Shown piece by piece: positions 1,041-3,938 of a DNA stretch of 50,664 nt (its first letter is position 1; the number at the start of each line of letters is the position of its first letter). Made by a program: the position numbers and the translations under genes. The notes below the pieces were generated by a model. It was not told the origin of the DNA. It did not search any database and saw only the letters and a program-made list of their open reading frames with translations. Source of the stretch: a virus (taxonomy: Duplodnaviria > Heunggongvirae > Uroviricota > Caudoviricetes); the IMG/VR virus record IMGVR_UViG_3300025162_000019, positions 138,826 through 189,489 of that record; one strand, written 5' to 3'.

Positions 1041-1907
1041 TTACATATCACTTAAATAGTTTTTTATTAGATTAGCTGTATATACAACATCCATTTCAGG
1101 GTAATAGTTCTTTATATCCACATAAATCTGATGTATAATACCAACATAACAAAGATCATAACTCTTTACATTATACCAAACACTAAAATCATTCTCAACA
1201 ATACTTTCAAATGCGTTATAGTATCTATTCTCTATCGGGATTAAAGGAATACAATTATTCTCTAATGCTTTTACAAAATCTGAATGGAGATAACCGCACA
1301 TATTTTGATTGAATGTATTGATTAAAATAGTAGCTTTCAGATCGCAAAACTCTATAGGTTTCTTTTTAACACTAAAATCTACATAGTTATTTTCATGCCT
1401 TATATCAGCATCATAGTTTACTTCTAATCCGCCATACATTTCAGATACATAATACTTATCAAAGGCTTGTATTCTATCACTTATAGAACCCTTATAACCC
1501 AATGGTGTTCGTTTCCAGTTGCAAAATTGAATGCCATTTAATGTTTTAATCTTCAACCAAAAAGGTAGATAACGAAATCCTCGCCTATGATTTAAATATG
1601 GCTCAAAAAATACAACATTAAACTTCTTCAGCCAGCTATATTCTTTCTCAGTCATTGATGCTTGACTATCAAAAATAATTATAGGCTTTTTCGTCCTTGT
1701 AAATTCTTCAACAAGTTCCGTTTGTTTTAAGATCAACTTTCCTTTATTAGAGTTCTTTTTATCATGCTCTGTTTTAATCCAGTTTAGAAAAATAGCATCA
1801 CACTCTTCATTTGAATCTGATGCTAATTCCTTCACCTTCATTACTGGGTCTTTATTCAACTCACAAATTAAACTACCATCATTAACATTAAAAATCCCAA
1901 GTATCAT
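1041..1907 (-). CDS. putative GT-B-fold glycosyltransferase, distantly T4 beta-glucosyltransferase-like
   Basis: LGYKGSISDR and KATILINTFNQNMCGYLHSDFVKALENNCIPLIPIE resemble the nucleotide-sugar-binding half of BGT (from memory: VIYGGSFR...AALIIGDKNY..FITLRVWETMASDAVMLIDEE); by-eye match only. CDS itself is certain, product is tentative. Confidence 0.4.
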   Translation of the reverse strand: MILGIFNVNDGSLICELNKDPVMKVKELASDSNEECDAIFLNWIKTEHDKKNSNKGKLILKQTELVEEFTRTKKPIIIFDSQASMTEKEYSWLKKFNVVFFEPYLNHRRGFRYLPFWLKIKTLNGIQFCNWKRTPLGYKGSISDRIQAFDKYYVSEMYGGLEVNYDADIRHENNYVDFSVKKKPIEFCDLKATILINTFNQNMCGYLHSDFVKALENNCIPLIPIENRYYNAFESIVENDFSVWYNVKSYDLCYVGIIHQIYVDIKNYYPEMDVVYTANLIKNYLSDM

Positions 1908-1928: not shown

Positions 1929-3344
1929 TTATATTCTGGCCCATTTAACAATCAAATCGTTGACTTCTGTAAACCAACCATTCTTTTCCTCATGCTCATA
2001 TTCATAAATAAAATCTATAACATGATCCGAAAAGCCATTTATTAATGTCCAGTTTTTATCATATGTTAGACCTGAATCATATGTTGCAATGTTCATAATA
2101 TAACCCTTACTATTATTAGAAGGTAATGCTCTACCATCTGTTGATTGCTCATCTGTTATAACAATCACTCTATCATACTCTTCTTTACTCTTTAAATCGT
2201 TCAAAGAAGTTCTTAAAGCTGTTCCCATGTTAGGCTGATTATTAATAATAGAATCAGCTAATTCAAAACCATGATAGTTATTTCCTACAAGGGCTAATCT
2301 ATCAGAAAAGGTATATACAACACATTCATCGCACACTTCTCTTAAAAGAATAGCAAGTGCTGTTGCGGTATCAATCCTTTTTGTTTCAGACTTCCTTGCA
2401 GTAGCCCAAGTCATTGAACCAGATACATCAACAAGTAATGCAGTTTTACCAGATAACTTGTTAAATGTTCTAACACACTTTAACATCATATCTTCAAGTT
2501 CTTTCTTAATATCTACATCTGAAATATTCTTATATGCAGTATAGAATCTGAAAGGGAAAAGTTTTTCAACATTAGCCTTATGTAAAGCATCTATAATCGT
2601 ATACTTATCAAGACCAGCTTCTATCATACCTCTTATATTTTTGATCAAAGCCATAGCACCTAACTTATTATTCTTAATCAAATCCTCAAAAACATCTTTC
2701 TTATTTTCACCGGAAGATAAACGCACTTCCCAAGTATCAGGGATTTCTAATTTAGAATATTCACCATAAAATGCCTTGATTGGAAATCCTGCTTTTGTTA
2801 CTGTTGGAAAGAAATCTTTATTTACCAACTGAGCAAACATCTTTCCTTTTGTCATATTTTCAGGTTTAGCGTGGCACAAAAATGCCGCATCCCTCAACTG
2901 AACAGAGCCAGGGCCACTATCATTCTTATTCCATTTAGCTATCTGATACTCATTGAACTTATTGAAAGCCTTTGAAATACCTTTCTTTACCTGAGCAGAC
3001 AAAGAAGAATCTTTATCACTACCAGACCAATATAGTTTTAAGAACTCAATTATTTCATCAGGTCTTTGAATAATCTGATTTAAAGTATTACTTAAAATAG
3101 AAGGGGTATATGTCTTAGTATTACGAGCAAGCTCACGAATTAAAAGCAATGGTATTTTTCTTAAATGGAACTTATCTCTAGCTTCTATCGCAAGAGAGGC
3201 AACCATATAAGGATCGCATTGTTTAACCAATTCTTTTATTCTATTTGTACAAGATGCGCCTGATTCATAAAATGAATTTTCATTTAATAGGCAAGATAAT
3301 ACTGAACGTCTTAACTGAGCTTCTGAACTTAAATTTTCAAACAT
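1929..3344 (-). CDS. rsr: Ro60/Rsr ortholog (TROVE + vWA domain RNA-binding protein), about 471 aa
   Basis: LRRSVLSCLL-E-SFYE, LRKIPLLLIRELA, FNEYQIAKW, TWEVRLS (TROVE); DVSGSM and VITDEQ (vWA MIDAS). Start re-assigned from 3425 to ATG at 3344 (SD AGGAGA 8 nt upstream) because the longer start runs through a structured RNA unit. Confidence 0.93.
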   Translation of the reverse strand: MFENLSSEAQLRRSVLSCLLNENSFYESGASCTNRIKELVKQCDPYMVASLAIEARDKFHLRKIPLLLIRELARNTKTYTPSILSNTLNQIIQRPDEIIEFLKLYWSGSDKDSSLSAQVKKGISKAFNKFNEYQIAKWNKNDSGPGSVQLRDAAFLCHAKPENMTKGKMFAQLVNKDFFPTVTKAGFPIKAFYGEYSKLEIPDTWEVRLSSGENKKDVFEDLIKNNKLGAMALIKNIRGMIEAGLDKYTIIDALHKANVEKLFPFRFYTAYKNISDVDIKKELEDMMLKCVRTFNKLSGKTALLVDVSGSMTWATARKSETKRIDTATALAILLREVCDECVVYTFSDRLALVGNNYHGFELADSIINNQPNMGTALRTSLNDLKSKEEYDRVIVITDEQSTDGRALPSNNSKGYIMNIATYDSGLTYDKNWTLINGFSDHVIDFIYEYEHEEKNGWFTEVNDLIVKWARI

Positions 3345-3370
3345 AACATATTCTCCTTGAGTAAAGATTT

Positions 3371-3434
3371 GAGGAACAAATTGCATTGAGTGTTTTTTCA
3401 TTTTGTAGTTGAAGTAACTCAACACTCCGCCATC
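3371..3434 (-). ncRNA. Y-RNA (Yrl)-like structured RNA, unit 1
   Basis: GAUGGCGGA-GUGUUGAGU-UACUUCAACU...-ACUCAAUGC-AAUUUGUUCCUC; 9-bp stem with 2 G-U pairs; motif shared with units 2 and 3; lies directly upstream of rsr. Confidence 0.7.
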
Positions 3435-3450
3435 AAATTATATTAAAATA

Positions 3451-3510
3451 GGGAACAAACAGAATGAGCGTCTTTTCATTTCAAGTGAAGTATCTCATTC
3501 TAACACCACT
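3451..3510 (-). ncRNA. Y-RNA (Yrl)-like structured RNA, unit 2
   Basis: AGUGGUGUU-AGAAUGAG-AUACUUCACUUGAAAUGAAAAGACG-CUCAUUCU-GUUUGUUCCC; perfect 8-bp stem; CUUCACUUGA resembles the CACUUGAC strand of the metazoan Ro60-binding helix. Confidence 0.72.
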
Positions 3511-3528
3511 ATAATCTTTTTTATTAAA

Positions 3529-3638
3529 GAGGAACAATTAAAAAAGAGATTATCAGGAGTTTCACCCGAATCCTTTTATTGTTACATTTTTGATTATTAG
3601 TCAAATTTCAAGTGAAGTAACTCTTCTTATACACCATC
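3529..3638 (-). ncRNA. Y-RNA (Yrl)-like structured RNA, unit 3, with tRNA-like arms
   Basis: GAUGGUGUAU-AAGAAGAG-UUACUUCACUUGAAA...UUUGA(CUAAUAA)UCAAA...UCGGG(UGAAACU)CCUGA-UAAU-CUCUUUUU-UAAUUGUUCCUC; two 5-bp/7-nt-loop hairpins inside the conserved outer stem. Confidence 0.72.
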
Positions 3639-3653
3639 TTTAACTTTGAATAT

Positions 3654-3682
3654 ATTATAACATATTACTTTTTATTTGTCAA
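3654..3682 (-). promoter_or_regulatory. consensus sigma70-type promoter for the Y-like RNA/rsr operon
   Basis: TTGACA (3682-3677), 17 bp, TATAAT (3659-3654), with extended -10 TG; predicted start near 3647, about 9 nt before unit 3. Confidence 0.85.
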
Positions 3683-3938
3683 TCTTTTCTTTTACTTTTT
3701 CTTCTTTTATTTTTTTCTTTCCAAGAGCATTTTCAATAATAAAATCTCTTACTGGAAATGACAAAGCATCTAAACGGCAGTGTAACCCCTGAGCTATAAT
3801 ATTTATAGGGCCAACTACTGTTGCAATATGCCTTACCGCTTCTGCCAAATCAAATGCAGCAATAAATGCTGTAAAGCTGTTGAAATTTGGAATCTTTTCG
3901 TATTCAATTCTATACACATTAACTGTTTTTCCTGCCAT
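3672..3938 (-). CDS. hypothetical protein (88 aa), Lys-rich C-terminus
   Basis: AGGAG SD upstream; stop codon overlaps the -35 region of the rsr promoter. Confidence 0.7.
   Translation of the reverse strand: MAGKTVNVYRIEYEKIPNFNSFTAFIAAFDLAEAVRHIATVVGPINIIAQGLHCRLDALSFPVRDFIIENALGKKKIKEEKVKEKIDK

What the first reader, a model, noticed from the sequence alone, without database searches (positions are those of the whole stretch)
1929..3682. Phage Ro60/Rsr operon led by a tandem array of three covarying Y-like RNAs under a consensus promoter
Seen: a consensus TTGACA-17-TATAAT promoter (3682-3654) is followed by three spaced units (3638-3529, 3510-3451, 3434-3371) and then rsr. All share GG(U/C)G, an 8-9 bp stem, UACUUCA, the partner stem strand, and UUGUUCC. 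Stem sequences differ but pairing is kept (AAGAAGAG/CUCUUUUU, AGAAUGAG/CUCAUUCU, GUGUUGAG/CUCAAUGC), which is compensatory covariation. G-U pairs fix the minus strand as the RNA. Known: Ro60 proteins bind Y RNAs that are usually encoded next to the gene, and Ro60-Y RNPs act in RNA decay and stress responses; some phage examples are known. Inference: this phage expresses early a Ro60 RNP with three RNA partners, two of them unusually minimal (about 60 nt, no tRNA-like module). They could act as tethers, gates or autoregulatory leader sites, perhaps to counter host RNA-targeting defences.
Basis: partly seen in the sequence, partly recalled or inferred. Interest (0 to 1): 0.9.

Follow-up and report, generated by a model that had tools for sequence, protein, structure and literature searches.

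The report
Phage Ro60 gene with three Y RNAs
An uncultured T4-like lake phage carries a Ro60 (Rsr) RNA-binding protein gene preceded by three small Y-type partner RNAs under one strong promoter; the call is sound, but this arrangement is already known from bacteria and other phages.

Summary
On the minus strand a perfect TTGACA-17-TGnTATAAT promoter (3682-3654) is followed by three units (3644-3523, 3516-3444, 3440-3365) and a TROVE/vWA Ro60 gene (3344-1929).

All three units share one frame: outer stem P1, a bulged U, a GG:CC pair, UGGYG, inner stem P2, (U/A)UACUUC, an apical part, P2', UUGUUCC and P1'.

A covariance model built only from units of other phages finds exactly these three sites in the window (E 5e-11 to 6e-10; next best 0.13). 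It finds no convincing fourth unit in the 127.5-kb contig.

About 65 homologous units flank TROVE genes in 26 other loci, always on the gene's strand, up- or downstream, and often 3-5 per locus. Covariation is strong: 89.5% of cells paired against about 45% when the partner strand is slid.

These are Y RNAs of the bacterial/phage Yrl type (Chen 2014; Thermus phage phiLo 2025). The 60-nt "minimal" units are common, not unusual.

What sets this locus apart is small. No unit has a canonical tRNA-like T or D arm. The GNCGAA motif is degenerate. U1 keeps an anticodon-arm mimic from a tRNA-embedded subtype.

Verdict: new member of a known kind, moderate interest. An earlier scan note on this same window had already flagged U1's tRNA-like hairpins.

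The parts
3654..3682 (-). Sigma-70-type promoter TTGACA-17-TATAAT with TGn extended -10 and an A-rich upstream stretch. The predicted start near 3647 is about 3 nt before U1's outer stem.
   Evidence: It is 12/12, one of 5 such sites in 127.5 kb. The closest relative L143 has TTTACA-17-TGnTATTAT at the same place.
3523..3644 (-). Y RNA unit U1 (about 122 nt). P1 is 3644-3637 with 3530-3523, and the bulged U is 3636. GG 3635-3634 pairs with CC 3532-3531. P2 is AAGAAGAG 3628-3621 with CUCUUUUU 3548-3541. UUACUUC is 3620-3614 and UUGUUCC is 3537-3531. It carries an insert of 53-59 nt.
   Evidence: Model R1, which did not contain U1, scores it 45.5 bits, E 9e-10. Model R2 scores it 48.6 bits, E 6e-10.
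3589..3605 (-). Anticodon-arm-like hairpin inside U1: UUUGA / CUAAUAA / UCAAA (5 bp plus a 7-nt loop).
   Evidence: It is nearly identical to hairpins in L011:2277-2387 and L158:3221-3340. There the Rfam tRNA model aligns it as the anticodon arm. It is invariant in five strain variants.
3553..3569 (-). Hairpin at the T-arm position of U1: UCGGG / UGAAACU / CCUGA (5 bp plus a 7-nt loop). The loop is not the canonical UUCRANU.
   Evidence: The homologues L011 and L158 have a canonical GGUUCAAnUCC here.
3444..3516 (-). Y RNA unit U2 (about 73 nt, hairpin type). P2 is AGAAUGAG/CUCAUUCU. The apical loop is AUACUUCACUUGAAAUGAAAAGAC.
   Evidence: R1 scores it 63 bits and R2 52.4 bits, E 7e-11. The same apical loop occurs with different stems in L123, L035 and L115.
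3365..3440 (-). Y RNA unit U3 (about 76 nt, hairpin type). The 5' motif is UGGCGGAG. P2 is GUGUUGAG/CUCAAUGC with two wobble pairs.
   Evidence: R1 scores it 58.3 bits and R2 52.8 bits, E 5e-11.
3353..3358 (-). Shine-Dalgarno AAGGAG of rsr, 8 nt before the ATG and only about 7 nt after the end of U3.
   Evidence: Read.
1929..3344 (-). rsr: a Ro60 orthologue of 471 aa with a TROVE HEAT-repeat ring and a vWA domain. The MIDAS motif is D306-x-S308-x-S310.
   Evidence: Pfam gives TROVE 9.3e-23 and vWA_Ro60 2.2e-5. PHROG 850 'RNA-binding protein' scores 2e-39. The solved Thermus phage phiLo Ro60 (9KOP/9L5Y) matches at E 2.7e-22 over residues 17-451.

Best explanation
This is a phage-encoded Ro60 (Rsr) ribonucleoprotein locus of the bacterial/phage Y RNA type.

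One strong host-type promoter makes a transcript that begins almost exactly at the first Y RNA. It carries three Y RNAs in tandem and runs on into the rsr mRNA.

Each Y RNA closes its 5' and 3' ends into a stem (P1). It presents a conserved asymmetric bulged region, 5' U-GG-YG and 3' UUGUUCC, which is the expected Ro60 docking site. Above this sits a second stem (P2) and a unit-specific apical part.

Inferred steps: host RNases cut the units out of the precursor. Rsr binds and stabilises each of them. The different apical parts act as adaptors that couple Rsr to other factors. The most likely factor is a host 3'-5' exoribonuclease such as PNPase, so that structured-RNA turnover is redirected during infection.

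Shown here: the anatomy, homology to about 65 units next to other TROVE genes, covariation, strand specificity and exclusive linkage to TROVE genes.

Not shown here: expression, processing, Rsr binding, or the partner and its biological role.
For: (1) The protein is Ro60-like along its whole length.

(2) The three units fit one covariance model. Model R2, built from 48 units of other phages only, gives E 5e-11, 7e-11 and 6e-10, with the next site in the window at E 0.13. In the whole 127.5-kb contig model R1 finds nothing further below E 0.06.

(3) Covariation on 53 units: 89.5% of cells are paired, against 44-47% when the 3' partner is slid. There are 377 cells changed on both sides, against 61-113. 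The score is 0.90 against 0.12-0.20. All 18 pairs show changes on both sides.

(4) The first G of GGYG and the last C of UUCC covary: G:C 34, A:U 13, U:A 3.

(5) RNAalifold recovers P1, the bulge, GG:CC and P2 on its own from a MAFFT alignment. Hand-set counts on the 13-sequence seed agree.

(6) Every hit in 26 other loci is on the TROVE gene's strand.

(7) In a control of 917 kb from 100 unrelated viral loci, each holding the loop 15-mer, hits occurred only in the four loci that carry a TROVE gene.

(8) Five strain variants of the same phage differ from the window only in apical loops and one spacer site. They never differ in P1, P2 or the motifs.

(9) Published precedents exist. YrlA and YrlB lie upstream of rsr and are processed from one precursor in M. 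smegmatis. D. radiodurans has several Y RNAs upstream of rsr. Twenty-two phages carry YrlA-like RNAs (PMC4201824). Thermus phage phiLo Ro60 binds two upstream hairpin Yrl RNAs and assembles with host PNPase (PMC12135203).
Against: There are no expression, processing or binding data for this uncultured phage.

The published 5' motif GNCGAAN0-1G is only loosely kept: U3 has GGCGGAG, U1 GGUGUAUAAG and U2 GGUGUUAG. GGUG forms are, however, frequent among the relatives' units.

No unit has the T and D arms that Chen et al. reported for at least one Y RNA per species.

No terminator or obvious processing signal separates U3 from the rsr ribosome-binding site. The units could therefore also act in cis.

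No RtcB or Rnl2-type RNA ligase is found on the contig, which is about 57% complete. An RNA-repair link therefore has no local support.

The PNPase partner is taken from other systems, not from this sequence.
Confidence: 0.85

Rival explanations
1. The three units are mainly cis-acting sites in the rsr 5' leader. Rsr would bind its own leader and throttle translation or stability of its mRNA. They would then be autoregulatory operators rather than free Y RNAs.
For: No terminator lies between the units and rsr. U3 ends about 7 nt before the Shine-Dalgarno sequence. All units are upstream of the gene in this phage and in its closest relative L143.
Against: In relatives the same module lies downstream of the TROVE gene (L002-L010, L035) or between tRNA genes (L012, L010, L007). 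There it cannot be a leader. Published upstream Y RNAs are cut from precursors and accumulate as free RNAs (PMC4201824). The conserved apical loops shared between distant phages point to a trans-acting partner. The two roles do not exclude each other.
Confidence: 0.12
2. The units are decayed remnants of a phage tRNA array (tRNA pseudogenes) with no present function.
For: Relatives have tRNA arrays around rsr. The U1-type insert is scored as tRNA in L158 (51.5 bits) and L011 (27.8 bits). This contig has no tRNA genes.
Against: The conserved part is the non-tRNA frame (P1, UGGYG, P2, UUACUUC, UUGUUCC). It is kept by compensatory changes across 27 loci and is invariant among strains. U2 and U3 have no tRNA features at all. 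A perfect promoter sits directly upstream.
Confidence: 0.02
3. The units are generic intergenic repeats or chance hairpins of an AT-rich phage genome, unrelated to Ro60.
For: The genome is 30% G+C. Single-sequence folding energies are not significantly better than shuffles, with z from -0.4 to -1.8.
Against: The model finds only these three sites in 127.5 kb. In about 1.1 Mb of other viral DNA it finds units only beside TROVE genes.
Confidence: 0.01

Closest known systems
Bacterial and phage Y RNAs of the Yrl type (YrlA/YrlB of Salmonella Typhimurium and Mycobacterium smegmatis; Chen et al. 2014, PMC4201824)
   Same: They are encoded within 4 kb of rsr on the same strand. Several occur per locus, and in M. 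smegmatis they lie upstream of rsr and are co-transcribed. The 5' and 3' ends pair. A G-rich 5' motif (GNCGAAN0-1G) sits in a bulged region, followed by a YUAY element. Relatives of this locus show that motif in canonical form (UGGCGAAG, UGGCGUAG) and carry YrlA-type T and D arms. CcrColossus, a phage cited for Y-like RNAs, is hit by my model (L020).
   Different: None of the three units here has a canonical T arm or D arm. The 5' motif is degenerate (GGUG in two units, GGCGGAG in one). A conserved 3' strand, UUGUUCC, with a covarying closing pair is evident in this phage group. Chen et al. state that only the 5' strand is recognisable in the Salmonella and M. smegmatis RNAs.
Thermus phage phiLo Ro60 with Yrl1/Yrl2 (NAR 2025, PMC12135203; PDB 9KOP, 9L5Y)
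   Same: It is a phage Ro60 with simple stem-bulge-stem Y-like RNAs just upstream of the gene. The protein is homologous over its full length (E 2.7e-22). Binding and assembly with host PNPase were shown there.
   Different: This locus has three units rather than two and comes from a mesophilic AT-rich T4-like phage. Sequence relatedness of the RNAs was not tested, because the phiLo RNAs were not among the sequences I held. The CGAA core used to find the phiLo RNAs is absent from all three units here.
Deinococcus radiodurans Yrn1/Yrn2 and the Rsr-Y RNA-PNPase (RYPER) machine
   Same: Multiple Y RNAs lie upstream of rsr in a polycistronic precursor. Both strands of the Ro-binding helix are conserved. 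Yrn1 has a tRNA-like part in the order D, anticodon arm, T. The U1-type inserts of L158 and L011, and in degenerate form U1, have the same order.
   Different: No sequence homology to Yrn1 was tested. U1 lacks the T-loop sequence. PNPase tethering is only assumed here.
Metazoan Y RNAs (hY1-hY5, Xenopus Y3)
   Same: They share the stem / bulged conserved helix / upper stem / variable loop layout. They have a UGGU-containing 5' strand opposite a UUG-containing 3' strand. This comparison is recalled from memory and was not tested here.
   Different: Rfam Y_RNA does not match, even at E 10. The register of the bulge differs. Transcription and La binding also differ.

Membership tests
Ro60/Rsr protein | TROVE (HEAT-repeat ring) domain | tested here: met
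   Pfam PF05731 scores 9.3e-23, 81.5 bits against a cut-off of 23. The protein aligns over residues 17-451 to the solved phage Ro60 9KOP.
Ro60/Rsr protein | C-terminal vWA domain with a MIDAS DxSxS motif | tested here: met
   vWA_Ro60 scores 2.2e-5 and VWA_2 5e-5, both slightly below Pfam's curated cut-offs. D306-V-S308-G-S310 is read directly from the translation.
Y RNA (bacterial/phage Yrl type) | Encoded within about 4 kb of rsr on the same strand | tested here: met
   All three units lie 21-300 nt upstream of rsr on the minus strand.
Y RNA (bacterial/phage Yrl type) | 5' and 3' ends pair into a stem that flanks a conserved bulged region, with a second stem above (stem-bulge-stem) | tested here: met
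   P1, the bulged U, GG:CC and P2 are recovered by RNAalifold. Covariation supports them in 53 units.
Y RNA (bacterial/phage Yrl type) | GNCGAAN0-1G motif near the 5' end (PMC4201824) | tested here: not met
   U3 has GGCGGAG (one mismatch), U1 GGUGUAUAAG and U2 GGUGUUAG. Strictly, none matches. Relatives range from canonical GGCGAAG to the same GGUG variants. The window units therefore lie inside the family's observed spread.
Y RNA (bacterial/phage Yrl type) | YUAY element after the stem | tested here: met
   U1 and U3 have UUAC. U2 has AUAC, so its first base departs from the pattern.
Y RNA (bacterial/phage Yrl type) | Bound and stabilised by Ro60/Rsr; accumulates as a discrete small RNA | not testable with these tools
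   This needs RIP or EMSA and Northern or RNA-seq.
YrlA subclass (tRNA mimic) | Canonical T arm (GGUUCRANUCC) and D arm (AGCUCAGUNGGUAGAGC) joined by an acceptor-like stem-loop | tested here: not met
   No such sequence occurs in U1-U3. There is no tRNA model hit at E up to 10. ARAGORN finds no tRNA-like gene in the window or the contig. Most long units of relatives do have them.
Hairpin Y RNAs (YrlB / Yrn2 / phiLo Yrl2 type) | Long hairpin with a Ro-binding region and a small apical loop, no tRNA-like domain | tested here: met
   U2 and U3 fit this description. The published 'pyrimidine-rich loop' does not apply to them: their loops are A-rich after UACUUC. Sequence homology to YrlB itself was not tested.

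The most novel reading that the evidence does not exclude
The apical parts of phage Y RNAs may form a set of conserved, exchangeable adaptor modules. Two observations prompt this. A roughly 20-nt loop, UACUUCACUUGAAAUGAAAA, is kept in at least four distant phages while its stems covary. An anticodon-arm mimic (CU-NAU-AA loop) is shared by three distant large phages.

In this phage lineage the canonical tRNA-like T/D module has been lost. Rsr would then be coupled to partners other than those of YrlA systems. U1 could, for example, serve as a decoy or sensor for a host anticodon-directed nuclease or a tRNA-modifying enzyme.
Probability: 0.15. Interest if true: 0.65.

Novelty: new member of a known kind. 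Interest (0 to 1): 0.35.

Why it matters
It adds a clean, well-delimited Ro60-Y RNA locus from a T4-like freshwater phage. With the roughly 65 related units collected here, it gives a sharper consensus for phage Y RNAs. That consensus includes both strands of the presumed Ro60 docking site, a covarying closing pair and the invariant UUACUUC.

Rfam 15 has no family that detects these RNAs. Such an alignment could therefore seed one and improve phage annotation.

The biological questions remain open: what phage Ro60 RNPs do during infection, and what the different apical modules recruit. This locus, with three distinct small units and one promoter, would be a compact construct to test them. It does not by itself overturn or extend current concepts.

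Tried and rejected
- Rfam at gathering thresholds on the window gave nothing. At E up to 10 on 3300-3720 it gave only chance-level hits: KRAS_3UTR, 6S-Flavo, snoU109. Rfam also fails to call the clear YrlA-type units of relatives. It evidently holds no Yrl family, so 'no hit' says nothing here.
- blastn of the 356-nt leader against 50,697 phage records gave only 59-nt chance matches in T5-like tail genes.
- A 15-mer scan (TACTTCACTTGAAAT) of IMG/VR returned 119 loci. Nearly all were chance, and four proved to be TROVE loci.
- Single-sequence folding energies are not significant, with z from -0.4 to -1.8. The case rests on comparative data.
- An alternative 9-bp long-range helix in U1 (UCACUUGAA with UUCGGGUGA) is rejected. 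Strain variants carry an insertion and a substitution in its 5' strand with no compensation.
- The terminator-like call at 3569-3553 is the T-position hairpin of U1. Its U-run starts 7 nt after the stem, so I do not read it as a terminator.
- RtcB and Rnl2 families are absent from the contig.
- The 288-aa ORF downstream has no Pfam or PHROG match. It is syntenic only in the closest relative, so it is not a general Ro60 partner.
- The best phage protein hit, RsoM2USA, showed no unit within 1.5 kb either side.
- The supplements of Chen 2014 and the 2020 Annual Review were not available.
Full report
**Observation**

Reading the minus strand of 3900-1800 shows the following, in order:
- TTGACA (3682-3677), a 17-nt spacer ending in TGT, and TATAAT (3659-3654).
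- Three units.
- A Shine-Dalgarno AAGGAG (3358-3353).
- An ATG at 3344 that opens a 471-codon frame ending at 1929.

The promoter scan rates the site 12/12 with an extended -10. Only five 12/12 sites exist in the whole 127.5-kb contig (30% G+C), and this one also has an A-rich upstream stretch. The predicted start, near 3647, is about 3 nt before the first base of U1's outer stem.

The ORF is a Ro60 orthologue:
- Pfam TROVE scores 9.3e-23, with a Ro60-type vWA domain.
- PHROG 850 scores 2e-39.
- It aligns along its full length to the solved Ro60 of Thermus phage phiLo (9KOP/9L5Y, E 2.7e-22).
- The MIDAS motif D306-x-S308-x-S310 is present.

**Are the units real?**

Rfam gives nothing. It also fails on obvious YrlA-type RNAs in relatives, so it has no model for this class.

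I therefore collected relatives of the protein:
- 14 IMG/VR loci at 26-46% identity.
- Seven cultured phages, including CcrColossus, crAss001 and Xanthomonas, Brevundimonas, Rhizobium and Microcystis phages.
- The closest relative, a 59%-identical syntenic Logan contig, L143.

The DNA next to these genes is full of units with the same frame as the window's three. That frame is: outer stem, U, GG(Y)G, purine-rich linker, inner stem, (G)UUACUUC, variable apical part, inner stem partner, UU(G/A)UUC(C), outer stem partner.

A MAFFT alignment of 13 short units (A1) was folded by RNAalifold. Without guidance it returned:
- an outer stem P1;
- a bulged U;
- a GG:CC pair continuing P1;
- a 7-8 bp inner stem P2.

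Twelve of the 14 predicted pairs show compensatory changes.

Model R1, built from this seed, found three hits in the 50.7-kb window, all at the site. They included U1, which was not in the seed (45.5 bits, E 9e-10, with a 53-nt insertion in the apical loop). Across the whole contig nothing else scored below E 0.06.

In 22 loci of relatives R1 found 50 further units at E < 1e-3. Every one lies on the strand of the TROVE gene.

On the 53-unit alignment, with controls in which the 3' partner strand is slid:

| Measure | Observed | Slid controls |
|---|---|---|
| Cells forming standard pairs | 89.5% | 44-47% |
| Cells changed on both sides | 377 | 61-113 |
| Covariation score | 0.90 | 0.12-0.20 |

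All 18 pairs show double changes. This alignment is model-fitted, which favours the structure. The MAFFT-based counts and RNAalifold agree with it.

One pair is telling. The first G of GGYG pairs with the last C of UUCC as G:C in 34 units, A:U in 13 and U:A in 3.

To remove circularity I rebuilt the model from 48 units of other phages only (R2). R2 scores U3 at 52.8 bits, U2 at 52.4 bits and U1 at 48.6 bits (E 5e-11 to 6e-10). The next site in the window is at E 0.13.

As a specificity control, R2 was run on 917 kb from 100 unrelated viral loci. Each of them happens to contain the 15-mer TACTTCACTTGAAAT. Hits occurred only in L108, L115, L123 and L035. The first three carry TROVE genes. L035 begins with the 3' end of a TROVE-like ORF, followed by three units and what looks like a tRNA gene (not checked).

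Five strain variants of this same phage (99.8% identical Rsr) differ from the window at a handful of sites in the 370-nt region. All are in apical loops or in the spacer before the Shine-Dalgarno sequence. None is in P1, P2 or the motifs.

G-U pairs in P2 of U1 and U3, together with the strict strand bias of all hits, fix the minus strand as the RNA strand.

**What they are**

The anatomy matches published bacterial and phage Y RNAs. Chen et al. 2014 (PMC4201824) report:
- YrlA and YrlB lie near rsr on the same strand.
- They carry a 5' GNCGAAN0-1G motif in the presumed Ro60 site, followed by a YUAY element.
- There are at least two Y RNAs per species. One has tRNA-like T and D arms. Another is a long hairpin.
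- In M. smegmatis the Y RNAs lie upstream of rsr and are cut from one precursor.
- D. radiodurans has several upstream RNAs in a polycistron with a tRNA.
- Twenty-two phages carry YrlA-like RNAs.

The 2025 phiLo study (PMC12135203) adds further points:
- A phage Ro60 binds two simple stem-bulge-stem RNAs encoded just upstream of its gene.
- It assembles with host PNPase.
- The study cites CcrColossus as having Y-like RNAs, and my model hits CcrColossus (L020).

Relatives in my set show the canonical motif (UGGCGAAG, UGGCGUAG). Their long units carry GGUUCRANUCC T arms and AGCUCAGUNGGUAGAGC D arms. The window's units therefore belong to the same family as YrlA-type RNAs.

**How this locus compares**

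*Number of units.* Three units is ordinary. Twelve of the 26 TROVE loci I tabulated have three or more.

*Short units.* The 60-75 nt units are the commonest class, so 'unusually minimal' does not hold.

*Position.* In relatives the units lie upstream, downstream or between tRNA genes. This argues for free RNAs rather than leader elements.

*What is particular here:*
- None of the three units has a canonical T or D arm. The contig has no tRNA genes at all. The closest relative, L143, likewise has only two units without T arms.
- The GNCGAA core is degenerate: GGUG in U1 and U2, GGCGGAG in U3.
- U1's insert is homologous to inserts in two distant jumbo-phage contigs, L011 and L158. In those the Rfam tRNA model recognises a cloverleaf in the order D arm, anticodon arm, T arm, at 27.8 and 51.5 bits. 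U1 keeps the anticodon-arm mimic almost letter for letter (UUUGA-CUAAUAA-UCAAA). At the T position it keeps a 5-bp/7-nt hairpin, but with the loop UGAAACU, and it has no D arm. I read U1 as a degenerate form of that tRNA-embedded subtype. An earlier scan note on this window had pointed to the two hairpins. The homologues now support the anticodon-arm reading and show that the T loop is non-canonical.
- U2's apical loop, AUACUUCACUUGAAAUGAAAAGAC, recurs identically in L123 and with small differences in L035 and L115. All three have quite different stems. This suggests a sequence-specific partner.

**Mechanism**

*Shown:* the anatomy, homology, covariation and linkage to Ro60.

*Inferred from the named precedents:*
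- The promoter drives a U1-U2-U3-rsr precursor.
- Host RNases release the units.
- Rsr binds the bulged UGGYG/UUGUUCC region.
- The apical modules couple Rsr to other factors, most plausibly a host 3'-5' exoribonuclease such as PNPase.

*Timing.* A perfect sigma-70-type promoter, in a block with UvsX-like and gp46/SbcC-like genes, suggests early transcription by analogy with T4. This is inference only. An earlier scan note calls the genome a large T4-like lake phage.

*RNA repair.* A link to RNA repair has no local support, because no RtcB or Rnl2 was found on the roughly 57%-complete contig.

*Autoregulation.* Regulation through the leader copies is possible as a secondary role, since U3 ends 7 nt before the Shine-Dalgarno sequence.

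**Verdict**

The finding is real and correctly identified, but it is a new member of a known kind. Its interest is moderate. It gives a clean example in a T4-like phage, a lineage that lacks the canonical tRNA-like module, and a comparative set that could seed an RNA family missing from Rfam.

Noticed in passing
L158:3221-3340 (IMGVR_UViG_3300032321_002024, 262.6 kb): A Y-type unit whose core is scored as a complete tRNA by Rfam (51.5 bits, anticodon loop CUUAUAA). The conserved UUACU of the Y frame forms the 5' acceptor strand. It sits between ordinary tRNA genes. The contig has a TROVE gene elsewhere, with two more units beside it.
   Followed up: partly
L123:8761-8831, L035:367-439, L115:6422-6491 and window 3444-3516: The apical loop UACUUCACUUGAAAUG(A/U)AAA is shared by hairpin-type Y units of four phages whose Ro60 proteins are very diverged (26-41% identical to the window's where measured), while both stems differ completely. 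It can be drawn as a 4-bp stem (UUCA/UGAA) with a 7-nt loop CUUGAAA. No covariation is available to test that drawing.
   Followed up: partly
window 45111-45083 and 48997-48969 (minus strand): Two more perfect TTGACA-17-TATAAT sites. The first is 85% identical to the Y RNA promoter over 39 nt, which suggests a shared phage promoter class.
   Followed up: no
window 1041-1907 (minus strand): The 288-aa ORF directly downstream of rsr has no Pfam or PHROG match. It is conserved (45% identity) and syntenic only in the closest relative, L143. It is not found next to other TROVE genes.
   Followed up: partly
L017 (Ralstonia phage RsoM2USA, MG752970.1 42262-46500): This is the best cultured-phage match to the Ro60 protein (42.5% identity). 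It has no Y-type unit detectable by the model within 1.5 kb on either side of the gene.
   Followed up: no
L002-L010, about 80 nt downstream of the TROVE stop (e.g. L010:4322-4398): In this group of IMG/VR phages the best-scoring hairpin unit lies just after the TROVE gene. Up to two further units (in L002) and tRNA genes (shown for L010) follow it. A YrlA-type unit and a longer unrelated structured region lie upstream.
   Followed up: partly
whole contig G000 (127.5 kb): ARAGORN finds no tRNA gene in 127.5 kb of this T4-like phage, although most relatives with Ro60 embed the gene in tRNA arrays. The contig is estimated to be 57% complete.
   Followed up: partly
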